A DNA stretch of 64,000 nucleotides from a virus, in IMG/VR virus record IMGVR_UViG_3300025138_000032, positions 5,688 through 69,687 of that record; one strand, given 5' to 3'. Position 1 is the first letter of the stretch, and every line of letters begins with the position of its first letter. Below, one piece after another: positions 1 through 10,113 of this stretch. The position numbers were made by a program, and so were the translations under genes. Below the pieces are notes generated by a model. It was not told the DNA's origin. It searched no databases and worked only from the letters and a program-made list of their open reading frames with translations.

Positions 1-1
1 A

Positions 2-2161
2 AATGAAAGAGTAGATGACAGAGTTAATGCATTACTAGTTGCCGGAACAGGCATTACATCTACATACGATGATGCCGCTGGAACACTTACACTTAACGGA
101 CAAGTTGGTGATGTAACAAGTGTTGTCGCTGGAACTGGTCTAACAGGTGGTGGAACAAGTGGTGATGTAACAGTAAATGTTGTTGGTGGTACAGGTATAA
201 TCGCAAATGCGAATGATATCGCAATCGATACTTCTGTAACAGTAGATTTAACTACTAGTCAAACACTTTCAGGCAAAACACTAACATCTCCAATCTTAAA
301 TACTGCTCTATCTGGTACTGCATTCTTAGACGAAGACGACTTCTCAAGTAATGCGAATGATAAAGTTGCATCTCAACAATCTATTAAAACATATGTTGAT
401 GCATCTGTTGCCGCTAAAGACAATACAGACGAAATCACTGAAGGTTCATCAAATCTATACTTCACAAATGAAAGAGTAGACGATAGAGTAGATGCTCTAC
501 TAACTTCTGGTGTCAATGTCGCTATGACATATGACGATGCAAATGGAAGTTTAGAGATTAGAGTACCTTTTGAGAATATACAAGATACAGTTGGTACTCA
601 GATTGCAACCAATGGTTCACATACAGGTCTTACTGCAACATATGATGATGCTGGTGACGGCGCTATAGACCTTGCAGTATCAACATCACATGTTAGGGGT
701 TTAATATCTGCTGGTGGTGACTTATCATACAACAGTACAACTGGTGTAATGAGTTTCACAAACGATGCTGGAGATATTTCTTCAGTAGTTGCTGGAACTG
801 GTACAACAGGTGGTGGAACTGCTGGCGATGTAACAATTAATGTTATTGGTGGCGATGGTATTACTGCAAACGCAAACGATATCGCATTATCATCTTCAGT
901 CGCTGGTGATGGTCTTGCATTCTCAAGTGGTATTCTTGCAGTAAATGTAGATGATTCATCAATCGAAACAAGTTCAGACACATTACAAGTAAAAGCAAGT
1001 GGTGTCACAAATGCCATGCTGGCAGGGTCAATCGGTGCAGATAAACTTGCAGGTTCAATAGGGAACGCAAAACTATCTAACTCATCAATTACAATAGACG
1101 GAAGTGCTGTTTCATTGGGTGGTTCAATAACTACTACAAATACACAACTTACACAAGAACAAGTCGAAGACTTTGTTGGTGGTATGTTAGATGGTACCGA
1201 AACAGGTATCTCTGTATCATACGATGATACAAATGGTAATCTTGACTTTGTTATTGGCGCTGACGACATTACTAACGATATGTTGGCAGGGTCAATTAAT
1301 CAATCCAAACTTGCAGGTTCAATTGCAAACGCAAAACTTGCTAATAGTACGATAACAATTGATGGACAATCAGTTGCATTGGGTGGTTCAGTCACAACAA
1401 CTAACACTCAATTATCAACAGAGAATGTACAAGATATCGCTGGGGCGATGTTCTCAAGTAATACTGAAAGTGGTATTACTGCAACATATCAAGATGCAGA
1501 TGGTACAATCGATTTAGATGTTAATGACCCAACAATATCCTTGACAGGCGATGTGACAGGTTCTGCTACAATGACCAATTTAGGTAATGTTAGTATCTCT
1601 ACTACAGTCGCTGCTAACTCAGTCGCACTTGGAACAGATACAACAGGTAACTATGTCGCAGGTGTAAGTGCAGGAACTGGTGTCTCAGTAAGTGGTTCTG
1701 GAGAAGGCGCAACTTCAACAGTAAGTATTGGACAGGCAGTTTCAACATCAAGTAATGTTCAATTTGCAAACTTAGTGTTATCAGGCAACTTGACAGTTAA
1801 TGGTGCAACATCAACAGTTAGTTCAACTAACACAACAATCGAAGATGCATTGATAGAATTAGGGACAGGTACTTCTGGTACGCCTTCTAACGATGCAGGT
1901 TTTGTTATTGAAAGAGGAAGTTCTGACAATGTATTCATTGGTTGGGACGAGAGTGCAGATGCGATAACATTTGGTACTGGTAGTTTTACTGGTGCATCTA
2001 CAGGTAATTTAAGTATTACACCAAGTGCAGTTAATACAGGCGCCTTGACGATTACTAATGCTAGTAACTCAGGCGGAACTGCGAGAAACATATATCAGTC
2101 AACATCAGCTCCAGGCGGAAGTGATGGCGCAGTTGGCGATTTATGGGTTCTCTACTCTTAA
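2..2161 (+). CDS. Long tail-fibre/adhesin-like structural protein (5' end outside the window)
   Basis: The frame of ORF 524..2161 is open back to base 2. It is G/S/T/A/D-rich with internal repeats (NERVDDRV; TITIDGxxVxLGGSxTTTNTQL twice; YDD motifs) and ends in a typical fibre tip, SAPGGSDGAVGDLW. Confidence 0.75.
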   Translation, partial: NERVDDRVNALLVAGTGITSTYDDAAGTLTLNGQVGDVTSVVAGTGLTGGGTSGDVTVNVVGGTGIIANANDIAIDTSVTVDLTTSQTLSGKTLTSPILNTALSGTAFLDEDDFSSNANDKVASQQSIKTYVDASVAAKDNTDEITEGSSNLYFTNERVDDRVDALLTSGVNVAMTYDDANGSLEIRVPFENIQDTVGTQIATNGSHTGLTATYDDAGDGAIDLAVSTSHVRGLISAGGDLSYNSTTGVMSFTNDAGDISSVVAGTGTTGGGTAGDVTINVIGGDGITANANDIALSSSVAGDGLAFSSGILAVNVDDSSIETSSDTLQVKASGVTNAMLAGSIGADKLAGSIGNAKLSNSSITIDGSAVSLGGSITTTNTQLTQEQVEDFVGGMLDGTETGISVSYDDTNGNLDFVIGADDITNDMLAGSINQSKLAGSIANAKLANSTITIDGQSVALGGSVTTTNTQLSTENVQDIAGAMFSSNTESGITATYQDADGTIDLDVNDPTISLTGDVTGSATMTNLGNVSISTTVAANSVALGTDTTGNYVAGVSAGTGVSVSGSGEGATSTVSIGQAVSTSSNVQFANLVLSGNLTVNGATSTVSSTNTTIEDALIELGTGTSGTPSNDAGFVIERGSSDNVFIGWDESADAITFGTGSFTGASTGNLSITPSAVNTGALTITNASNSGGTARNIYQSTSAPGGSDGAVGDLWVLYS

Positions 2162-2188: not shown

Positions 2189-4255
2189 ATGGCGACAGGT
2201 TCACAAAAGGTCAAAACACCAACAGGTTGGAATTCTACAAGAGGTGCATGGGTAAAAACTGCATCTGGTACTTGGAAAGATGCAGAACAAATCTATGTCA
2301 AGACTCCAACAGGTTGGAATAACGCTTCAGGACAGGCAAGTGTCCAACAACCTTATCCGTACATTGCTAACGCTCAAGAACCCAATATAAGAAATAAACA
2401 AAACCCTTATCCTTATATTGCTAACGCTCAACAACCGAATATAAGAAATGCACAACAACCGTATCCTTATATCGCAAACAATCAAGAGCCTAATATTAGA
2501 GATGCAAGACAACCTGCGATTTATCAAAATCCAGTAAGCGCACAAGAACCTAATATTAGAAGTCAACAAGAACCTAATATTAGAAGTCAACAAGAACCTA
2601 ATATTAGACCGGCGAGACAACCTTCTACATATCAACATAGAAGTCCGTCAACATATAGAGACCCTAGAACATATCAACATCCGACTACCTATCAGCATAG
2701 AAGTCCTTTGACTTATCAACATAGAAGTCCATTGACTTATCAGCATAGAAGTCCGTTGACATATCAACATAGGTCTCCTTCTACTTATCAACATAGAGAA
2801 CCGAACACTTATAACCATAGGTCACCTTATAGAAGTCCGTTTACTTACAATCATAGAAGTCCTTTGACATATCAGCATAGGTCGCCATTTACATATCGTA
2901 ATCCGTTTACCTATAATCATAGAAGTCCGTTGATTTATCAACATAGGTCTCCTTATAGAAGTCCGTCCACTTATCAACATAGAGAACCGAACACTTATAA
3001 CCATAGGTCACCTTATAGAAGTCCGTCCACTTATCAACATAGAGAACCGAACACTTATAACCATAGGTCGCCATTTACATATCGTAATCCGTTTACCTAT
3101 AATCATAGAAGTCCGTTGATTTATAACCATAGGTCGCCACTTACATATGACCATAGGTCGCCATTTACATATCGTAATCCGTTTACCTATCAACATAGAA
3201 GTCCTTTAACATATAATCATAGAAGTCCGTTGATTTATCAGCATAGGTCGCCATTTACATATCGTAATCCGTTTACCTATAATCATAGAAGTCCGTTGAT
3301 TTATCAGCATAGAAGTCCGTTGACATATCAGCATCAAAGTCCTTCGACATATCAGCTTCCGTTTACATATCGTAATCCGTTTACATATAACCATAGGTCG
3401 CCATTTACATATCGTAATCCGTTTACCTATCGTAATCCGTTTACATATAACCATAGGTCGCCTTCTACATATAACCATAGGTCGCCTTCTACATATAACC
3501 ATAGGTCGCCATTTGGATATCAGCTTCCGTTTACCTATCGTAATCCGTTTACATATAACAACAGACAACCGTTTACTTACAATCATAGAGAACCGTATAC
3601 TGTTAATGCAAGACAACCATTTACATATAATGCTCGTACTGGAGTTAATGTTCAGACTGCATCACAACAACCAAGTAGTTACTCATTCCGTAACCCAATC
3701 ACTTTCCCACCAGGTGGTGGCGGAGGCGGCGGCGGAGGTTGCTTTGCTCCAGGTTCAATGATATGGCTTGCAGATGGAAGTCATTCGCCTATCGAGTCAT
3801 GTGTTCTTGGTCAATATGTAATGACTTGGAACGAAAGTACAAAACTTCTAGAACCTAGAGAGATATCTCTAATCATGAAACCAAGAATGTGTCCTATATT
3901 TGATGTTACATTCTCAGATGGAAGAATATTACAAATGACTGATACTCACCCATTAATGTTACCAAATGGCCAATGGGGTGCATTTGATGTTGAGAAATCA
4001 ATTAGAGAACATGAATGGATGCAAGATATTGAAACGCATGAACTTACAGTTGGCGATAGTGTCTTTAGTATGTTAGATGGTATAATGTTTGACAGACAAG
4101 ACGAAATGGGCTTAGAAATAGTATCTATAGAAGAACATTCTGAAATGGAAGTACATAACTTAAGTGGAGTTTATGAAAACAATAACTTCTTTGTTAATGG
4201 AATGCTCGCTCATAACTTTGGTAATCAGAGTCAGAATACCCAGGCGAAGAACTAA
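2189..4255 (+). CDS. Repeat fibre protein A: VKTxxGW N-terminal motifs, short QEPNIR tract, long TYxHRSP tract, Gly9 linker, C-terminal Hint domain
   Basis: Repeats are visible in the translation. The Hint domain starts CFAPGSMIWLADG, has TDTHPL (block B) and ends VHNL...FFVNGMLAHN. Confidence 0.85.
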   Translation: MATGSQKVKTPTGWNSTRGAWVKTASGTWKDAEQIYVKTPTGWNNASGQASVQQPYPYIANAQEPNIRNKQNPYPYIANAQQPNIRNAQQPYPYIANNQEPNIRDARQPAIYQNPVSAQEPNIRSQQEPNIRSQQEPNIRPARQPSTYQHRSPSTYRDPRTYQHPTTYQHRSPLTYQHRSPLTYQHRSPLTYQHRSPSTYQHREPNTYNHRSPYRSPFTYNHRSPLTYQHRSPFTYRNPFTYNHRSPLIYQHRSPYRSPSTYQHREPNTYNHRSPYRSPSTYQHREPNTYNHRSPFTYRNPFTYNHRSPLIYNHRSPLTYDHRSPFTYRNPFTYQHRSPLTYNHRSPLIYQHRSPFTYRNPFTYNHRSPLIYQHRSPLTYQHQSPSTYQLPFTYRNPFTYNHRSPFTYRNPFTYRNPFTYNHRSPSTYNHRSPSTYNHRSPFGYQLPFTYRNPFTYNNRQPFTYNHREPYTVNARQPFTYNARTGVNVQTASQQPSSYSFRNPITFPPGGGGGGGGGCFAPGSMIWLADGSHSPIESCVLGQYVMTWNESTKLLEPREISLIMKPRMCPIFDVTFSDGRILQMTDTHPLMLPNGQWGAFDVEKSIREHEWMQDIETHELTVGDSVFSMLDGIMFDRQDEMGLEIVSIEEHSEMEVHNLSGVYENNNFFVNGMLAHNFGNQSQNTQAKN
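2354..3643 (+). repeat. Coding tandem repeat tract A: 58 units of 4/6/8/10 aa (1290 nt)
   Basis: Mostly Pro-terminated units such as NIRSQQEP, LTYQHRSP, FTYRNP and YRSP. Confidence 0.95.
3740..4216 (+). other. Hint (intein-like/BIL-type) autoprocessing domain within protein A
   Basis: Cys1 follows poly-Gly; TxxH motif; terminal His-Asn followed by Phe rather than C/S/T; no endonuclease insert. Confidence 0.85.
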
Positions 4256-4303
4256 AATGATAATACTAACAAACAAAAATATGATAGTAAGGGGTAATAT
4301 CTA

Positions 4304-5722
4304 ATGCCACAACAACCGGTAATAGCAAACGCTCAGACGACTGTTAGGTCTCCAAGCATAGGACAACAACCTTATATTGCTAATGGTCAAACACCATTTA
4401 TTCAACCTACGCAGGGTCCTGCTATAAGAAACGGCCAGACGCCGTATATTGCGAATGGGCAGTCACCTAGTAATGCAAGAAGTCCGAGAAACGCACAGCA
4501 ACCTAATATTAGAAATAATCAAGAACCTAATATTAGAAATAATCAAGAACCTAACATTAGAAGTGCCCAATCACCTAGTAATGCACAATCACCTAGTAAC
4601 GCACAAGAACCTAACATTAGAAGTGCCCAGTCACCTAGTAATGCAAGAAGTCCAAGAAACGCACAAGAACCTAACATTAGAAGTCAACAAGAACCTAACA
4701 GTAGAAGTCAACAAGAACCTAATATTAGGAATGCTCAGTCACCTAGTAATGCACAACAACCTAATAGTAGAAGTCAACAAGAACCTAATATTAGAAACCA
4801 ACAAGAACCTAACATTAGAGATGCTCAGTCACCTAGTAGCGCACAGCAACCTAACATTAGAAGTCAACAACAACCTAATATTAGAAGTCAACAAGAACCT
4901 AATATTAGAGATGCTCAGTCGCCTAGTAATGCACAAGAACCTAATATAAGAAGTTATCAGTCTCCTTATATTGCTAACGCACAAACATCAGCACAAGAAC
5001 CTAATATAAGAAATTATCAGTCTCCTTATATTGCGAATAGACAAAATACAGCACAACAACCTAATAGTAGAAGTCAACAAGAACCTAATATTAGAAATGC
5101 TCAGTCACCTAGTAATGCACAAGAACCTAACATTAGAAGTCAACAAGAACCTAATATTCGTTCAGCACAAGCATCAGCACAAGAACCAAACATAAGAAGT
5201 TATCAGTCTCCTTATATTGCGAATGCTCAGAATCCTTTTATTAGAAATCAACAAGAACCTAATATTAGAAATCAACAAGAACCTAACATTAGAAATCAAC
5301 AAGAACCTAATATAAGAAACAAACAGACTACTTCTAATTATCAGAATCCTGTAAATGCTCAGAATCCATTTATTAGAAATAGACAGACACCATTTACATA
5401 TGACCATAGAAGTCCGTTGACATATGACCATAGGTCACCATTGATTTATAATCATAGAAGTCCGTTTACTTACAGGCATCCTGGAAATAGTCAGACTCCG
5501 TTTACCTATCAACATAGAAGTCCTTCAACATATGCTAGACAAGGTCAAACACCTTTCACATATCAACATAGAAGTCCTTCGACATATGCTAGACAAGGTC
5601 AGACGCCAACAACCTATCAACATAGAAGTCCTTCGACATATGCTAGACAAGGACAAACACCTGTTATCCGTTGGGATGGTGTTCTATCGCAGACCTGGCC
5701 AGGCACTCCTATATCGTCATAA
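4304..5722 (+). CDS. Repeat fibre protein B: long QEPNIR/AQSP tract followed by a short TYxHRSP tract
   Basis: Translation; SD-like AAGGGG upstream; same repeat vocabulary as protein A. Confidence 0.85.
   Translation: MPQQPVIANAQTTVRSPSIGQQPYIANGQTPFIQPTQGPAIRNGQTPYIANGQSPSNARSPRNAQQPNIRNNQEPNIRNNQEPNIRSAQSPSNAQSPSNAQEPNIRSAQSPSNARSPRNAQEPNIRSQQEPNSRSQQEPNIRNAQSPSNAQQPNSRSQQEPNIRNQQEPNIRDAQSPSSAQQPNIRSQQQPNIRSQQEPNIRDAQSPSNAQEPNIRSYQSPYIANAQTSAQEPNIRNYQSPYIANRQNTAQQPNSRSQQEPNIRNAQSPSNAQEPNIRSQQEPNIRSAQASAQEPNIRSYQSPYIANAQNPFIRNQQEPNIRNQQEPNIRNQQEPNIRNKQTTSNYQNPVNAQNPFIRNRQTPFTYDHRSPLTYDHRSPLIYNHRSPFTYRHPGNSQTPFTYQHRSPSTYARQGQTPFTYQHRSPSTYARQGQTPTTYQHRSPSTYARQGQTPVIRWDGVLSQTWPGTPISS
4373..5662 (+). 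repeat. Coding tandem repeat tract B: 58 units (1290 nt), mirror of tract A in unit lengths
   Basis: Units such as NIRSQQEP, SNAQEP, AQEP and STYARQGQTP. Confidence 0.95.
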
Positions 5723-5749
5723 ATATAAGACAATTTAGGAATTTACATT

Positions 5750-7297
5750 ATGAGTATCAAAAGCAAATCATTCGAGCATACAAAGGAATTACTCCAAGGA
5801 CTCGACCCAACAGATAAGAGTTTTCATCTACAGTTGGGTCAGTTCGATGTTCTAAAAGAATACAAAGAAACAGACACATACAAATCATTAAAGTATGTTA
5901 CAGAGAATCACACCGGAAAACTAAAACAAGTTAAATGGGGTGACATGACTAAACTAATCAAGGAAGAGAAATTTCTTGGTTGGAATAAACTACAGTCCCA
6001 TGCATGGGCATATCATTACTTTCTACCCCACGGATATACTGCACCGGAAGAAACTCCAGTACCAGGAATTTCGGGAATGGATTTTAAAAATTCTAACAAT
6101 GAATATCAAAAGTTAGAAGACTTCACTGATAAAAAACTAAATGACCAACAGAATAACAGTATCAATTCTGTATATTATCATGGCGCCAAGGCTCATTGGT
6201 TAGTAGATAGTATCAGAGAAGAGGGTCTATGGAATGCTATTCAAGGCACTGTAAGTTTAGCAGGAAAAAATAAAGATGGAGAACAGATGTATCAGTTATC
6301 AATACATCCAGGTTCAGTTCGTTCTGGTGTATTTGAAACAATGGATGACCCAAATTTAGATTTATGGATATGGGACAATCATGATGCTATACCTTTACCA
6401 GAGACATCTATAGATGAAATGATTGATGAGATGAAAGGGCAACTTATAGAACGAGATGCAGAACACTATTCAATATCTTTTGGATATACTCGTGGTTACT
6501 TAGAGATACATAGTGACTTATTGAAGATGAACTTCAGAGGAAGTGTAACCGATTATAACATGAAAGTTAACCAATTGTCAAAGGGTAAACATCTAAACAT
6601 ATACATTGGTTACGATTCTAGACATACTGATATCGCTGAGTTAAGTGCAAAATGTGTTAAAAGTAGTATATTATCTGGTGCCGGCAGAGGCGATGTGCAT
6701 GATGTATTAGGAGATTGGACTCCTGAGATAAAGTTTCTTGACATATCAAAGATTCCAGAGTATAATAGAGAGTATGCAGCTCAATCAACAGAGTTCACAT
6801 ATAGTAGATTCTTAATTCCTTACTTGGAAAACTATGAAGGATTTAGTATTTTTATTGATGATGATATACTATTCAATGAAAGTATCTTACCAATGTTCTA
6901 CTACTTAGACTTAGACGATGCAGTTGCATGTGTACAGTATGACTTTGATAGTTATGCTGAAACAAAATTTAACGGTGAAAAGAATGTATCTTATCCTAAA
7001 AAACTTTGGTCTTCTTTGATGATATTTAATAATGGTCATGAAGACTGTAAGAAACTTACACCAGAAGTTGTTAATACTGAAAGTGGTAAGTATCTACATC
7101 AATTTGAATGGACAGATAAGATATCAGAGATACCAGAGTGGTATGTTATAACAGAAGGACACGATACAGTAGAAGATAAGTGGCGTGCTTGTGCTATACA
7201 TTACACACGAGGCGGTCCTTGGATTGAAGATATGGATATCTCTCAGATAGAACACCTAAATATGTATGAAAGATTAAAAAATAAACATCAAAACTAA
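5750..7297 (+). CDS. Fusion: ParB/Srx-like N-terminal domain plus GT-A (GT8-like) glycosyltransferase
   Basis: C-terminal half has IYIGYDSR, QSTEFTYSRFLIP, DDD, WSSLMIFN and HYTRGGPW, typical of phage GT8-like proteins. N-terminal half has LVDSIREEG...HPGSVR, loosely ParB-like. Confidence 0.7.
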   Translation: MSIKSKSFEHTKELLQGLDPTDKSFHLQLGQFDVLKEYKETDTYKSLKYVTENHTGKLKQVKWGDMTKLIKEEKFLGWNKLQSHAWAYHYFLPHGYTAPEETPVPGISGMDFKNSNNEYQKLEDFTDKKLNDQQNNSINSVYYHGAKAHWLVDSIREEGLWNAIQGTVSLAGKNKDGEQMYQLSIHPGSVRSGVFETMDDPNLDLWIWDNHDAIPLPETSIDEMIDEMKGQLIERDAEHYSISFGYTRGYLEIHSDLLKMNFRGSVTDYNMKVNQLSKGKHLNIYIGYDSRHTDIAELSAKCVKSSILSGAGRGDVHDVLGDWTPEIKFLDISKIPEYNREYAAQSTEFTYSRFLIPYLENYEGFSIFIDDDILFNESILPMFYYLDLDDAVACVQYDFDSYAETKFNGEKNVSYPKKLWSSLMIFNNGHEDCKKLTPEVVNTESGKYLHQFEWTDKISEIPEWYVITEGHDTVEDKWRACAIHYTRGGPWIEDMDISQIEHLNMYERLKNKHQN

Positions 7298-7311
7298 ATT
7301 ATGGAGTTATT

Positions 7312-7863
7312 ATGAATATGTTAATTTATTGTGAGAATGGTCATCTTACTATCAGAAAACCAAATGGCCTAGAGTGGAGACACGAGAATGTCGACAAACC
7401 AGAATTAGGATTTGACTATGATGTTTTAATCTATGATGATATCGAAGTTAAGATTATGGAGTGGAAAGACGATGTTCAGTTTGATGACCAAGTTAAAGTT
7501 TCGCTTACAGATGTAGAGTCAGATGCAATTGAGAATTACATTGATAATTCTACACCACCTAATGATGTAACATTAGCAAATCAATACAGTCAACAAATCA
7601 ATAATGTTTGTAAAGACTATGTAGAACAACAAATAGAATCTTATGGATTTGAAAGTTTAATAGATACCATGGCAGCTGCCAGAGATGGTTCGAATCACCC
7701 TTTAAGGTCAGATGCAAGAAGAGCTTTAGAATACTATGATGTAATGTGGAATATTTACATCAATGTAATGAATGAAGTCAAGGCAACTAGAGAAGACTTA
7801 CTGCCAGATGTTGAAGAGTTTATTAATAGATTTCCTCAACCACAACAAGCATTGATTGAATAG
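7312..7863 (+). CDS. Putative tail-fibre assembly/chaperone-like protein
   Basis: C-terminal segment YGFESLIDTMAAA...RRALEYYDVMW resembles fibre-assembly proteins; lies next to fibre genes. Confidence 0.45.
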   Translation: MNMLIYCENGHLTIRKPNGLEWRHENVDKPELGFDYDVLIYDDIEVKIMEWKDDVQFDDQVKVSLTDVESDAIENYIDNSTPPNDVTLANQYSQQINNVCKDYVEQQIESYGFESLIDTMAAARDGSNHPLRSDARRALEYYDVMWNIYINVMNEVKATREDLLPDVEEFINRFPQPQQALIE

Positions 7864-8611
7864 TAGTATGTCTAAGTTTAACTTAGAAATAGTCAAGATA
7901 GATAAACCCTTTGCTATAAAAGACATGCCTATGGGAAATAAAATCTATGTAATTGATGACTATCTTGAAACATCAACACATCATTGGATGAATAATAGTG
8001 TTACTCGAGGACCTAGATGGTGTAAATCAAATCAAGTAAACGCTCAACATCCTACAGGTTTGCCACATCATTCCCTTTGGGGAGCATCTTTCTTTAAGAC
8101 AGATAGTAATGGCGCACCAATGATGGAAAAGGGCGAGAATGATTGGACAACTGAAGCCGCTAGATGGTTTAATAGAAAAATATGTACAGATTTTCTATTC
8201 AAATGGAAAAGATTTCAATACATGGGTACTAATTCTCAAACTCATGGCCAACACGGAACAACTCACTCAGATTGTGCAGAAGAAGATGATTGGAACTTAT
8301 CGTTTCTATATTATTATAACACATTCTGGAATCCTGCATGGGGTGGTGATTTAAGATTCTATGAACCCGATGTTTATCAAGCAGGTTTAGACGGTAGAGA
8401 TGAACACATAGAAAAACATTCAATAGGCAGTGTCGAGTTTAAACCAAACAGACTATTGATGTTTGACGGAAGAATACCTCATGGTGCAGATGCACCAACT
8501 TCTAGAGCCAGATATGCAGATAGATGTTCTATAGTACTTAGAGGCGATGAGATAGAACTTATTGAAAAGGAAGAATTATATAATGCCAACGATAGATTTC
8601 ACTACATTTAA
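7856..8611 (+). CDS. 2OG-Fe(II) oxygenase, prolyl-hydroxylase-like
   Basis: HSD (HxD), WGGDLRF, PNRLLMFDGRIPH and a distal Arg. Confidence 0.8.
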   Translation: MNSSMSKFNLEIVKIDKPFAIKDMPMGNKIYVIDDYLETSTHHWMNNSVTRGPRWCKSNQVNAQHPTGLPHHSLWGASFFKTDSNGAPMMEKGENDWTTEAARWFNRKICTDFLFKWKRFQYMGTNSQTHGQHGTTHSDCAEEDDWNLSFLYYYNTFWNPAWGGDLRFYEPDVYQAGLDGRDEHIEKHSIGSVEFKPNRLLMFDGRIPHGADAPTSRARYADRCSIVLRGDEIELIEKEELYNANDRFHYI

Positions 8612-9416
8612 CGAAGAGAGTCTTAGAGACTTTAAACCAGTTTTAGCTAAATCTCTAGCACCCGAATGGTTTAAAAAGATGAAAGTCTTTCAACACGATA
8701 GGGGTAAGAGAATGCAAACTATTCGTGCTTGCCCTGCTATGGATGACTGGTTAAAATCTGGTTGGTTGATTCTTGCAAATAGAGACATGGAAGTTAATGT
8801 AGATGGTCCTTTTACATATACAAAAGATACTGAATTAGGCAAACAAGGCACGGCATCTCCTTCTCACCCATCAGCTCAGTTTGGTTATGCATTTAGTTAT
8901 CTAGGTGAAGAAGGTCCAATCAAAGATGCATTTAAAATGAGAAGTGCCTGGAACATAATAACACCCAAAGGATACTCATGTTTTTACTTAGACCCATTTC
9001 TATTTCAAAACAATCACTTTGCTACATGGCAAGGTGTTATAGATACAGATGACTTTAATGTCAATCAAGACAATTCACAAATTATTTTTTATCCTAAAGT
9101 TAATCATTCGTTTATTATACCAAAAGGAACTCCTTTAGTTCAAATCATACCGTTCAAAAGAGAAGAGTGGGTGGCGACATATCAATTAAAAGATGAGAAG
9201 GCCTGGCACAACGACAGAGGCGAAAACAGACATCAAGATATGCCTGGAATGGATGAAATAAATAGAACTAAGTACAATAAACTTCAAGATGAGAATCCAA
9301 ATCATATGGGTGCTTACAGAACTGAGGGTCATTGGAAAAGTAAAGGTAAAAACTTTAAAGAAATGGAACCACCACCAGAGTGTCCGTTTCATAAAGGAGA
9401 TGTAGATGGCGATTAA
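8583..9416 (+). CDS. Conserved phage protein, DUF6065-like beta-barrel family
   Basis: TIRACPAMDD...GW, TPKGYSCF, GVIDTD and IPKGTPLVQIIPFKR motifs; likely start at MPTIDF. Confidence 0.6.
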   Translation: MPTIDFTTFNEESLRDFKPVLAKSLAPEWFKKMKVFQHDRGKRMQTIRACPAMDDWLKSGWLILANRDMEVNVDGPFTYTKDTELGKQGTASPSHPSAQFGYAFSYLGEEGPIKDAFKMRSAWNIITPKGYSCFYLDPFLFQNNHFATWQGVIDTDDFNVNQDNSQIIFYPKVNHSFIIPKGTPLVQIIPFKREEWVATYQLKDEKAWHNDRGENRHQDMPGMDEINRTKYNKLQDENPNHMGAYRTEGHWKSKGKNFKEMEPPPECPFHKGDVDGD

Positions 9417-10113
9417 ATTATTCAGTCCAGCAGTAATAGTAGTGAGACGATGGTTAGACGAACCAGATGATAAAGTAGAAGGACTTACTCCTGAATATTT
9501 TGCACTATTGAAGAACGAAATGGATGCGATGAGAACAAGAGACCCACAAGGCAGAAAGAGGTCTAATGCTGGTAATGGTTGGCAGTCAAATGATGGTATA
9601 GATAATAATCCCATATTCAATAAGTTGATGAGAAACATTAAGAAGATGGCTCAAAACGAGTTGTTAGGATTCTGTGGATTTAAACCTGGCGAAGGTGAAA
9701 TAGACCAACATAATGCTTGGGGAAACATAAACTACAAAAATGGATCCAATCAACCACATTTACATAATGGGTGTAGTTATTCTGGTGCTTGTTATATTCA
9801 TGCAGAAGGTGATGAAGGTGATATTAGATTTATAGAGACATCAAAACATTTTGTGGGTATGCCTGTAAATACTCCTAGAATGGAAGAATCGTGGGCTGTA
9901 GCACCTAGAACAGGAGATATACTTTTGTTTCCTAGTGGATTGATGCATATGGTAGAAACAAACAAGACAGATAAAGATAGATACAGTATTTCATTTAACA
10001 TGGATATAAGAGGTGCAGACAATTCAGATATTTTTATCGATGAGGATGAAGCAAGACAAGAGAAAATGGATAATATTTTCAAAACAGACCACTTTGGTAA
10101 GCTTATTCAGTAG
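9406..10113 (+). CDS. Putative 2OG-Fe(II) oxygenase (TIGR02466-like)
   Basis: WGNIN, HLH, SGACY, LLFPSGLMHMV and RYSISFN. Confidence 0.8.
   Translation: MAIKLFSPAVIVVRRWLDEPDDKVEGLTPEYFALLKNEMDAMRTRDPQGRKRSNAGNGWQSNDGIDNNPIFNKLMRNIKKMAQNELLGFCGFKPGEGEIDQHNAWGNINYKNGSNQPHLHNGCSYSGACYIHAEGDEGDIRFIETSKHFVGMPVNTPRMEESWAVAPRTGDILLFPSGLMHMVETNKTDKDRYSISFNMDIRGADNSDIFIDEDEARQEKMDNIFKTDHFGKLIQ

What the first reader, a model, noticed from the sequence alone, without database searches (positions are those of the whole stretch)
2189..5722. Two adjacent repeat proteins are exact mirror images in repeat register: a candidate antiparallel complementary protein zipper
Seen in sequence: tract A (2354-3643), cut into units that mostly end in Pro, has lengths 10,8,10,8,10,8,6,6,8,8,8 | 8,6,6,8,8,8,8,8,8,4,8,8,6,8,8,4,8,8,4,8,8,6,8,8,8,6,8,8,8,6,8,8,8,6,6,8,6,6,8,8,8,6,6,8,8,8,8. 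Tract B (4373-5662) gives the same 58 lengths in reverse order; a few boundaries (four in B, one in A) fall at non-Pro residues. Both tracts are 1290 nt (430 aa). Three further degenerate units (6,4,8) also match near the A end and B start. TYxHRSP-type units face NIRxQxP-type units. All unit lengths are even, as expected for beta-strands. The DNA tracts are not reverse complements, so the symmetry exists at protein level. Inference: A and B anneal antiparallel along their whole length into a two-chain beta-ribbon of about 140 nm if fully extended (430 residues at about 3.3 A). It is probably a virion fibre, given the VKTxxGW N-terminus and the position after a tail-fibre gene. I know of no described system like this.
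Basis: partly seen in the sequence, partly recalled or inferred. Interest (0 to 1): 0.96.

Follow-up and report, generated by a model that had tools for sequence, protein, structure and literature searches.

The report
Mirror-complementary two-protein phage fibre pair
Two neighbouring genes of an uncultured marine T4-like phage encode repeat proteins that match unit for unit, in length and in opposite type, when one is read backwards, and related phages keep this match through paired insertions and deletions, which points to a long two-protein antiparallel fibre of a kind I could not find described.

Summary
ORF A is 2189-4255 (688 aa) and ORF B is 4304-5722 (472 aa). Both are built from proline-punctuated units of 4, 6, 8 or 10 residues. 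In one antiparallel register, 55 of B's 61 prolines face a proline of A. The best parallel register gives 31, and 5000 unit shuffles give at most 32.

The pattern is not a DNA inverted repeat. In 50 distinct homologous pairs from IMG/VR, with 42 distinct B architectures, the mirror beats every shuffle and the best parallel register in 50 of 50. Facing units are of opposite type: 454 of 488 8-mers and 263 of 316 6-mers. Close relatives differ by indels of equal size at mirrored positions.

Best reading (0.7): A and B pair side by side, antiparallel, in an extended beta-type shaft belonging to the fibre/neck module. Binding, stoichiometry and virion location are inferred, not shown, and structure predictors gave nothing usable. 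No Pfam, PHROG or PDB family covers the repeats, and I found no paper on them. Earlier notes of this scan report the same family in at least 14 other genomes.

The parts
2189..4255 (+). Gene A, 688 aa: N-cap, repeat tract, Gly run, Hint-like domain
   Evidence: ORF. AAGGA lies 8 nt before the ATG.
2189..2353 (+). A N-cap (aa 1-55) with three VKTPxGW-type motifs. It is the most conserved part of the family.
   Evidence: Alignment A3 has 85% mean column identity over 26 sequences. The profile finds only about 24 clusters with a full N-terminal match among 1.84 billion representatives. AF2 gives short strands here at pLDDT about 50.
2354..3643 (+). A repeat tract (aa 56-485): 11 NIR/YIA-type units followed by 47 TYxHRSP-type units
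3644..3712 (+). Degenerate last units of A (aa 486-508)
   Evidence: alignment; the mirror is loose here.
3713..3739 (+). Gly9 run. Its length is polymorphic in the field.
   Evidence: Translation. An extra GGCGGA follows 3730 in contigs of 3 of 4 runs.
3740..4252 (+). Hint/intein-like autoprocessing domain of A (aa 518-688): Cys1 after the Gly run, TDTH, and C-terminal HN followed by Phe
   Evidence: PF14890 E 1.3e-5, 25.4 bits, under the cut-off of 35.8. PDB 4o1r_A E 0.0033. Motifs read. The domain is present in 18 of the 37 pairs listed, counting L087's, which the script missed.
4286..4303 (+). Ribosome-binding region of B (AAGGGG before the ATG); B is a separate cistron
4304..5722 (+). Gene B, 472 aa
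   Evidence: No Pfam, PHROG or PDB match.
4373..5662 (+). B repeat tract (aa 24-453): 47 NIR/NAQ-type units followed by 11 TY-type units. It is the mirror complement of A's tract.
5663..5719 (+). B C-cap (VIRWDG...WPGTPISS), conserved. In the mirror register it lies opposite A's N-cap.
   Evidence: Invariant R185 W186 D187 G188 W194 P195 P198 in alignment A2; alignment.
1..2161 (+). 3' part of the upstream fibre-like gene (932 aa in the full record), always next to A
   Evidence: phrog_697 'structural protein' E 1.4e-18. Full length. Found upstream in 43 of 43 loci with room.
5750..10113 (+). Five strictly syntenic downstream genes: GT8-like (5750-7297), 183-aa ORF, 2OG oxygenase (7856-8611), 284-aa ORF, 2OG oxygenase (9406-10113). 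They are candidate modifying enzymes of A and B.
   Evidence: Pfam. Synteny 78/78, 78/78, 77/77 and 77/77 in B-anchored loci; GT behind B in all 78 loci with a recognised B.

Best explanation
A and B are obligate partners. Their repeat tracts lie side by side in opposite directions, so A's N-end meets B's C-end, and each unit of one chain sits against a unit of equal length and opposite type in the other.

The pairings are TYxHRSP-type against NIRxxQxP-type for 8-mers, FTYRNP-type against xxAQxP-type for 6-mers, and YPYIANAQxP against STYARQGQTP for 10-mers. The unit order therefore works as a register code, and B is the 'reverse complement' of A at the level of repeat units.

The chains are most likely extended, with a two-residue (beta-type) period. 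All prolines would fall on the same, outward-pointing class of positions. The alternate residues F/L, Y, H, S of TY units would pack against E/Q, A/Q, R, N of NIR units.

The conserved A N-cap and B C-cap form one end. The Gly run, with or without a self-removing Hint domain, and B's N-terminus form the other. The product would be a long thin shaft belonging to the fibre/neck module of the virion, either one A:B ribbon or three of them. Its length would be set by the number of units, and it may be modified by the adjacent glycosyltransferase and 2OG oxygenases.

Shown here: mirror, type complementarity, compensating indels, synteny. Inferred: physical binding, beta geometry, stoichiometry, virion location, modification.
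For: (1) In the window, 55 of B's 61 prolines are mirrored in one register, against at most 32 in 5000 shuffles and 31 for the best parallel register.

(2) In 50 distinct pairs (A 309-778 aa, B 223-563 aa, 42 distinct B architectures) the mirror exceeds every one of 500 shuffles and the best parallel register in 50 of 50. The median share of prolines matched is 0.89 and z ranges from 5.0 to 14.2.

(3) Of 36 A proteins, 25 fit their own B best, 7 tie with near-identical relatives, and 4 are beaten. The cognate mean is 0.83 and the non-cognate mean 0.50.

(4) Facing units are of opposite type. This holds for 454 of 488 co-bounded 8-mers (2 T:T, 3 N:N, 29 other; 28 pairs used after dropping 9 near-duplicate or aberrant ones). 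It also holds for 263 of 316 6-mers (25 T:T, 4 N:N, 24 other). It holds where a chain is half T and half N: L073 has 356 complementary against 23 same-type residues.

(5) Written as unit tokens, A equals the reversed and type-swapped B over 55 units in L090, 51 in L081 and 48 in the window.

(6) Relatives show compensating indels. Window vs L001: 10 and 20 aa at A 369 and 439, and 10 and 20 aa in B mapping to 369 and 437. L090 vs L129: 44 and 44. L081 vs L073: 88 and 88. L090 vs L093: 2, 2, 22 against 2, 2, 19+3. L114 vs L028: A has six indels (6, 2, 2, 2, 12, 2) and B seven, of which 6, 12, 2 in A answer 6, 8+4, 2 in B; the three 2-aa A indels at 270-293 face an 8, a 2 and an opposite-direction 3.

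(7) Facing units covary at residue level. TY position 1 = F goes with NIR position 5 = A in 229 of 265. L goes with Q in 58 of 63 and with E at position 7 in 59 of 63. TY position 5 = A goes with NIR position 3 = A in 44 of 44. The six largest mutual-information values are all between odd positions.

(8) Pro spacings are even in 63 of 64 and 57 of 58.

(9) The module order fibre-A-B-GT-ORF-oxygenase-ORF-oxygenase-ORF-gp14 is kept in all loci with room, next to the neck, gp15, terminase, sheath and portal genes.

(10) The stretch's words occur in 14 DNA runs at 0.78-0.85 and in RNA libraries at up to 0.60.
Against: There is no physical evidence of binding. Each chain alone is predicted as unstructured: AF2 pLDDT is 31.5 and 34.7 and the Atlas model has pLDDT 0.50. 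The composition is polar and Pro-rich, like a disordered protein, with few hydrophobic residues per unit.

In three divergent pairs (L055, L058, L087) only 0.45-0.53 of prolines are mirrored, with z 5.0-5.8, and type complementarity falls to 0.38-0.80. L054 reaches 0.71 with type complementarity 0.59.

Four A proteins fit another locus's B better than their own (L010, L071, L072, L087). L072's A fits L081's B at 0.90 against 0.67 for its own.

Unit pairs within a locus are not independent, because blocks were duplicated. The covariation z-scores are therefore inflated, and N positions 1/3 and 5/7 are coupled, so the exact register (P opposite P, or shifted by two) is not resolved.

No natural A-B fusion was found (weak evidence). 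The homologous pairs come from one phage clade and share ancestry.
Confidence: 0.7

Rival explanations
1. The pairing is real but the shaft is not a single two-chain ribbon. Three A:B pairs would build a six-stranded antiparallel needle around a three-fold axis. This is like the needle of the T4 long-tail-fibre tip, where each chain runs out and back, but here the outward and returning strands are separate gene products.
For: Phage fibres are as a rule trimeric (my own knowledge). [quoted passage not shown] One face of the units carries F/L, Y and H and the covarying residues, while position 4 of both unit types is polar and covaries only weakly, as expected for a buried and an exposed face. 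Upstream fibre length rises with B length: Spearman 0.585, n 39, not corrected for phylogeny.
Against: The repeats have no sequence relation to any solved structure or to Pfam or PHROG families. TY units carry one His, not the HxH pairs that I recall from gp37. No stoichiometry data exist.
Confidence: 0.3
2. A and B do not bind each other. Both would bind lengthwise, in opposite directions, to a third periodic partner such as the shaft of the upstream fibre protein or a host surface polymer. Their unit orders would then mirror each other only indirectly.
For: Strict adjacency to the fibre-like gene (43 of 43) and the correlation of its length with B's.
Against: It needs a third molecule whose features change in step with every mirrored indel. 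It does not explain why facing units are of opposite type rather than the same type, nor the residue covariation between facing units. No such periodicity of the fibre protein was examined here.
Confidence: 0.1
3. The mirror is a relic of an inverted DNA duplication. B would have begun as the antisense strand of A, or the two tracts would pair as DNA or RNA, with no present protein-level meaning.
For: An inverted repeat would give mirrored unit lengths for free. In one register a few codon pairs are exact antisense pairs (L/Q, T/S, N/I, R/P by hand).
Against: Both tracts have the same strand skews. The best revcomp identity is 0.387 in the window, with a mean of 0.336 over 14 of the 37 pairs. 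That is no better than the meaningless 'reverse' control at 0.393 and 0.350. Exact antisense codon pairs reach only 5% at the best register, against up to 3.9% in the control. A relic cannot explain lineage-specific compensating indels.
Confidence: 0.02
4. The proteins are disordered, heavily modified (glycosylated or hydroxylated) surface or coat polymers. The mirror would be a by-product of repeat dynamics or of assembly error.
For: The predictions look disordered. A GT8-like gene and two 2OG oxygenase genes always follow. Public contigs break in the repeats.
Against: No repeat process on one strand produces mirrored order with type swap in a second gene. 50 of 50 separately assembled pairs show it. 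Modification and pairing are not exclusive.
Confidence: 0.03

Closest known systems
Needle domain of the T4 long-tail-fibre tip protein gp37
   Same: [quoted passage not shown]
   Different: It is one gene and a homotrimer, with both directions in the same chain. It has no Pro-punctuated unit alphabet and no second gene that is its mirror complement. No sequence similarity was found.
Antiparallel coiled-coil arms of SMC/Rad50/MukB proteins (my own knowledge)
   Same: Two long segments pair antiparallel, and their interruptions sit at mirrored positions and change together in evolution.
   Different: They are alpha-helical and intramolecular, with heptad rather than 4/6/8/10-residue Pro-bounded units, and have no two-type unit code.
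Spectrin alpha/beta heterodimer (my own knowledge)
   Same: Two different repeat proteins associate side by side in antiparallel orientation.
   Different: The repeats are 106-residue three-helix units. Pairing is nucleated at a few repeats, and no unit-by-unit mirror of variable-length units is known.
Streptococcal antigen I/II stalk (lead from earlier scan note e1-5790595; details from my own knowledge, not tested)
   Same: Two complementary repeat classes pair antiparallel to make a long stalk.
   Different: It is a single chain, with an alpha helix against a polyproline-II helix and three repeats of each.
Type-A bacterial intein-like (BIL) / Hedgehog-type Hint domains (applies only to the C-terminal domain of A)
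   Same: There is a Cys nucleophile directly after a Gly run, a TxxH block, and a C-terminal HN (read). Pfam and PDB give weak hits to intein splicing domains.
   Different: Phe follows HN, so canonical splicing is not expected. The Pfam score is under the gathering cut-off. The domain is optional in the family.
Hydroxyproline-rich glycoproteins and viral prolyl-hydroxylase substrates (my own knowledge)
   Same: Pro-punctuated short repeats are encoded beside 2OG oxygenase and glycosyltransferase genes.
   Different: Those are single-chain, polyproline-II type polymers. No complementary partner or mirror is known. Modification of A or B is untested.

Membership tests
Hint/intein superfamily (C-terminal domain of A) | Significant match to an intein/Hint profile | tested here: inconclusive
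   PF14890 E 1.3e-5, 25.4 bits, against a cut-off of 35.8. PDB 4o1r_A, a DnaB-derived chain, E 0.0033.
Hint/intein superfamily (C-terminal domain of A) | N-terminal Cys/Ser nucleophile, TxxH block, C-terminal HN | tested here: met
   GGGGGGGGG-C518 FAPG, TDTH and AHN were read in the translation. The block names are recalled.
Canonical splicing intein | Cys/Ser/Thr at +1 after the terminal Asn, and a C-extein to be ligated | tested here: not met
   Phe follows HN, and only 11 residues follow it before the stop.
Known phage fibre repeat families (gp37 needle, gp5 beta-helix, collagen-like, others in Pfam/PHROGs) | Profile or sequence match of the repeat tracts | tested here: not met
   There is no Pfam family for B and none for A's repeats. 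Neither has a PHROG. There is no PDB chain at E up to 1 for B or for A's repeats. Atlas feature hits are 0.84 or lower, so they are leads only.
Collagen-like / polyproline-II repeats | Three-residue period (Gly-X-Y) or odd/triple Pro spacing | tested here: not met
   Pro spacings are 2, 4, 6, 8, 10, 12, 14 or 18 residues. They are even in 63 of 64 (A) and 57 of 58 (B). There is no Gly period.
Sense-antisense (inverted-repeat) gene pair | Reverse-complement similarity of the two coding DNAs | tested here: not met
   identity is no higher than the reverse-only control, and exact antisense codons reach 5% at best.
Glycosyltransferase family 8 (downstream gene 5750-7297) | Pfam PF01501 at or above the gathering score | tested here: inconclusive
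   24.1 bits against a cut-off of 24.3, E 3.2e-5, residues 341-418 only.
Heteromeric antiparallel fibre (the class proposed here) | Physical A:B complex with antiparallel register | not testable with these tools
   Only comparative evidence is available.

The most novel reading that the evidence does not exclude
This would be a natural protein-protein pairing code that works like base pairing. A small alphabet of Pro-bounded units exists in two complementary types and several lengths (T6/N6, T8/N8, T10/N10). One gene spells a word in it and the next gene spells its reverse complement. The two chains would zip into a register-locked antiparallel hetero-duplex whose length evolves by compensating unit gains and losses in both genes. 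That would be a new fibrous fold class and a ready-made programmable beta-type zipper.
Probability: 0.6. Interest if true: 0.97.

Novelty: categorically new. Interest (0 to 1): 0.9.

Why it matters
If the two chains really zip together, this is a fibrous protein architecture with no described counterpart. It would be a two-gene hetero-duplex kept in register by a readable unit code, evolving through compensating indels in the way paired RNA stems evolve through compensating substitutions.

It would give structural biology a new long beta-type shaft. It would give protein design a natural set of orthogonal pairing units of defined length. It would give phage biology an explanation for a conserved but unannotated module of abundant marine T4-like phages, which may set the reach of a fibre.

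The dozens of natural variants already form a covariation data set from which pairing rules can be read.

Tried and rejected
**Complex prediction.** The complex of A 1-236 with B 272-472 was predicted with alignments A1 and A2. The result was no verdict (score 0.00 in two runs, controls not run). It counts neither for nor against binding.

**Single-chain prediction.** AF2 on single chains gave pLDDT 31.5 and 34.7, so no fold search was made. The Atlas model has pLDDT 0.50, and feature hits are 0.84 or lower, so they are leads only.

**DNA-level explanations.** Reverse complement, plain reverse, complement and direct identity profiles were compared, and exact antisense codon pairs were counted. 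All were rejected.

**Self-mirror.** A against A and B against B are lower than A against B in 33 of the 36 intact pairs. The exceptions are L054 (A-A 42 against A-B 40), L055 (B-B 42 against 34) and L058 (B-B 32 against 28).

**Fused A-B proteins.** None was found among proteins of 827-2360 aa (weak evidence).

**Isolate phages.** There is no close DNA match and no tblastn match to A's first 144 aa, so no annotated record or virion proteome could be consulted. By portal protein the nearest isolates are Methylophilales phage Melnitz (54.9%), Pelagibacter phages Mosig (54.8%) and HTVC008M (51.8%).

**N-cap profile search.** Hits with 3-8 short stretches are translations of repeated DNA, not relatives (P0020, P0025, P0028 and P0045 read).

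**Literature.** Six unit motifs searched anywhere in the text gave 0 papers. A six-term search on heterodimeric antiparallel beta-ribbon phage fibre repeats listed nothing relevant among 15 titles and abstracts. A first search on pelagimyophage, tail fiber and repeat listed 15 papers; I opened one, and saw nothing on these proteins in the other 14 titles and abstracts. In PMC7029224 I read the passages holding six search terms, including 'repeat', 'tail fiber' and 'glycosyltransferase'. They describe a hypervariable host-recognition cluster but not these proteins. Supplements were not opened.

**Read laying.** Contigs fragment in the repeats and none spans a tract, so unit order is neither confirmed nor contradicted. 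Parts of the stretch without cover in the RNA run say nothing.

**T4 late-promoter word TATAAATA.** There are 8 matches against 6.1 expected, and none lies before A or B.

Full report
**What is there.** The window carries two adjacent, co-oriented ORFs. A is 2189-4255 (688 aa) and B is 4304-5722 (472 aa). Each has its own Shine-Dalgarno-like sequence. A has five parts:
- a 55-residue N-cap with three VKTPxGW-type motifs;
- a 430-residue tract of Pro-bounded units;
- a few degenerate units;
- a Gly9 run;
- a 171-residue Hint/intein-like domain.

The Hint-like domain has Cys1, TDTH and a terminal HN followed by Phe. Its Pfam match is PF14890, E 1.3e-5, under the cut-off, and its PDB match is 4o1r_A, E 0.0033.

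B is a 430-residue tract between a short N-terminus and a conserved C-cap (VIRWDG...WPGTPISS). The repeats match no Pfam family, no PHROG and no solved structure.

**Check of the observation.** B's list is A's list backwards once three 12-mers and one 14-mer of B are split at non-Pro residues.

A count that needs no parsing gives the same result. In the register pA+pB=508, 55 of B's 61 prolines face a proline of A. The next-best registers give 42 and 33, the best parallel register 31, A against A 35, and B against B 30. Shuffling B's units 5000 times gave a mean of 20.4, sd 3.0 and a maximum of 32. Pro spacings are even in 63 of 64 and 57 of 58.

**Not a DNA effect.** Both tracts have the same strand skews. 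The ungapped identity of A to revcomp(B) peaks at 0.387, while the biologically meaningless reverse(B) reaches 0.393. Over 14 of the 37 pairs the mean peaks are 0.336 and 0.350. Exact antisense codon pairs reach 5% at the best register, against up to 3.9% for the control. The symmetry is therefore at the protein level.

**Relatives.** Three scans of IMG/VR were anchored on the Hint domain, the downstream glycosyltransferase and B's C-terminal part. They returned 173 loci. From these I extracted 50 distinct complete A/B pairs, counting the window and leaving out the frameshifted L011. There are 42 distinct B and 45 distinct A proline architectures. A ranges from 309 to 778 aa and B from 223 to 563 aa.

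In 50 of 50 pairs the antiparallel coincidence exceeds all 500 shuffles and the best parallel register. The median share of prolines matched is 0.89 (range 0.45-0.95; 39 pairs at 0.8 or more). The median z is 10.7 (range 5.0-14.2). The weakest are three divergent pairs (L055, L058, L087), whose units are longer and carry fewer prolines.

Cross-pairing 36 A proteins with 36 B proteins gave these results: 25 fit their own B best, 7 tie with near-identical relatives and 4 are beaten. L072's A fits L081's B at 0.90 against 0.67 for its own, so it is a natural recombinant or a chimeric assembly.

**Type complementarity.** Units fall into a TY class (xTYxHRSP, FTYRNP, STYARQGQTP) and an NIR/NAQ class (NIRxxQxP, xxAQxP, YPYIANAQxP).

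Of 488 exactly co-bounded 8-mer pairs, 454 are TY against NIR: 268 with TY in A and 186 with TY in B. Two are TY:TY, 3 are NIR:NIR and 29 are unclassified. These come from 28 pairs after dropping 9 near-duplicate or aberrant ones. Of 316 6-mer pairs, 263 are complementary, 25 are T:T, 4 are N:N and 24 are other.

The rule holds in loci where each chain is half of each type. L073 has 356 complementary against 23 same-type residues. Written as tokens, A equals the reversed, type-swapped B over 55 units in L090, 51 in L081 and 48 in the window.

**Compensating changes.** Between close relatives, indels in A are answered by indels of the same size at the mirrored place in B:

| Comparison | Indels in A | Indels in B (mapped to A coordinates) |
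|---|---|---|
| Window vs L001 | 10 and 20 aa at 369 and 439 | 10 and 20 aa at 369 and 437 |
| L090 vs L129 | 44 | 44 |
| L081 vs L073 | 88 | 88 |
| L090 vs L093 | 2, 2, 22 | 2, 2, 19+3 |
| L114 vs L028 (three of A's six indels) | 6, 12, 2 | 6, 8+4, 2 |

The remaining L114/L028 indels match less tidily. Three further comparisons (window vs L002, L056 vs L060, L172 vs L170) gave many small indels whose sizes and mirrored places agree only in part.

**Residue level.** Within TY8:NIR8 pairs, facing residues covary:
- TY position 1 = F goes with NIR position 5 = A in 229 of 265.
- L goes with Q in 58 of 63, and with E at position 7 in 59 of 63.
- TY position 5 = A goes with NIR position 3 = A in 44 of 44.
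- TY position 7 = Y goes with NIR position 1 = Y in 25 of 25.

The six largest mutual-information values all link odd positions. This is the pattern of residues on one face of two antiparallel extended strands.

There are two caveats. Unit pairs inside a locus share duplication history, and NIR positions 1/3 and 5/7 are coupled. The exact register (P opposite P, or shifted by two) is therefore not fixed.

**Mechanism proposed.** The two tracts pair antiparallel, unit against complementary unit. The even spacing puts every proline of both chains on the same class of positions. In a two-stranded antiparallel ribbon these can be the outward-facing, non-hydrogen-bonded sites, where Pro is tolerated and blocks further sheet growth. 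That step is inferred from general knowledge of beta-sheet geometry.

The conserved caps lie together at one end. In the register, A's KTPTGW lies opposite B's WPGTPI read backwards. The Gly run, the optional Hint domain and B's N-terminus lie at the other end. The Hint domain is present in 18 of the 37 pairs listed (counting L087's, which the script missed), so it is not essential.

The architecture is constant at the cap end (N10 N8 three times in every pair shown). It varies towards the A/B gene junction. A single recombination spanning the junction would therefore exchange mutually paired segments together; this is also inference.

**Context.** The record is a 69.7-kb virus fragment. Neck gp14, gp15, terminase, sheath and portal genes follow, so it is a T4-like myovirus. 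By portal the nearest isolates are Methylophilales phage Melnitz and Pelagibacter phages Mosig and HTVC008M, at 52-55%. The host is unknown.

The order fibre-like gene, A, B, GT8-like gene, 183-aa ORF, 2OG oxygenase, 284-aa ORF, 2OG oxygenase, 271-aa ORF, gp14 is kept in every B-anchored locus with room. The counts are 43/43, 78/78, 78/78, 77/77, 77/77 and 76/76, and the loci were not deduplicated. That supports a structural role and suggests modification of A and B. Neither is shown.

The stretch's words are found in 14 DNA runs at 0.78-0.85 and in RNA libraries at up to 0.60.

**What failed.** Complex and single-chain predictions gave nothing usable. No fused form, isolate phage or paper was found.

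**Earlier notes.** Notes of this scan report the same family and reading in at least 14 other genomes. I used them as leads only: the gp37 needle, SMC arms, the antigen I/II stalk and the optional Hint domain.

**Verdict.** The comparative evidence makes antiparallel A:B complementarity the best explanation (0.7). Geometry, stoichiometry and virion location remain open. I found no described counterpart.

Noticed in passing
window 1-2161 (full gene in L095 5050-7848): The length of the upstream fibre-like protein rises with the length of B across loci (Spearman 0.585, p 9e-5, n 39). Starts were taken at the first Met and there is no phylogenetic correction. The fibre and the A/B shaft may be length-matched parts of one structure.
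   Followed up: partly
window 5750-10113: Five genes always follow B in the same order: a GT8-like gene, a 183-aa ORF, a 2OG-FeII_Oxy_3 oxygenase, a 284-aa ORF and a 2OG-FeII_Oxy_5 oxygenase. They are candidates for hydroxylation or glycosylation of the repeats. GT8 includes glycogenin, which glucosylates Tyr (my own knowledge), and Tyr is nearly invariant in TY units (444 of 454).
   Followed up: partly
window 3713-3739: The Gly run is length-polymorphic. Contigs of 3 of the 4 runs laid carry an extra GGCGGA (two more Gly) behind 3730.
   Followed up: no
L072 (A 4754-6244, B 6271-7905): This is a mismatched pair. Its A fits the B of L081 (0.90) better than its own B (0.67), and its B equals that of L073. 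It is either a natural recombinant with a poorly matched duplex or a chimeric assembly. L010 and L071 are similar but milder cases.
   Followed up: partly
P0004 (400 aa): This A-type protein has the usual N-cap and units but a different Tyr/Ser/Thr/Pro-rich C-terminal domain of about 130 residues in place of the Gly run and Hint domain. It may be a tip domain.
   Followed up: no
window 2294-2311 and 5693-5710: In the mirror register, A's N-cap motif KTPTGW lies opposite B's C-cap WPGTPI read backwards. At the cap end like residues (P, T, G, W) therefore face each other, unlike the heterotypic pairing in the tracts.
   Followed up: no
L054, L055, L058, L087: Divergent lineages use longer units with a Gly-containing middle, such as FTYAYQVDARGSTQQP and NTYIYQVTTTGNTRSP, and sets such as FRYP YIQP LIGNTQEP. 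The proline mirror is weaker there (0.45-0.71). A scoring that does not rely on Pro would be needed.
   Followed up: partly
one search hits P0020, P0025, P0028, P0045: These proteins match the N-cap profile in 6-8 short stretches. They are three-frame translations of a repeated DNA element (FQFPTGWNST / SFNSQRDGIL / VSIPNGMEFY), probably CRISPR-like arrays miscalled as genes. They are not relatives.
   Followed up: partly
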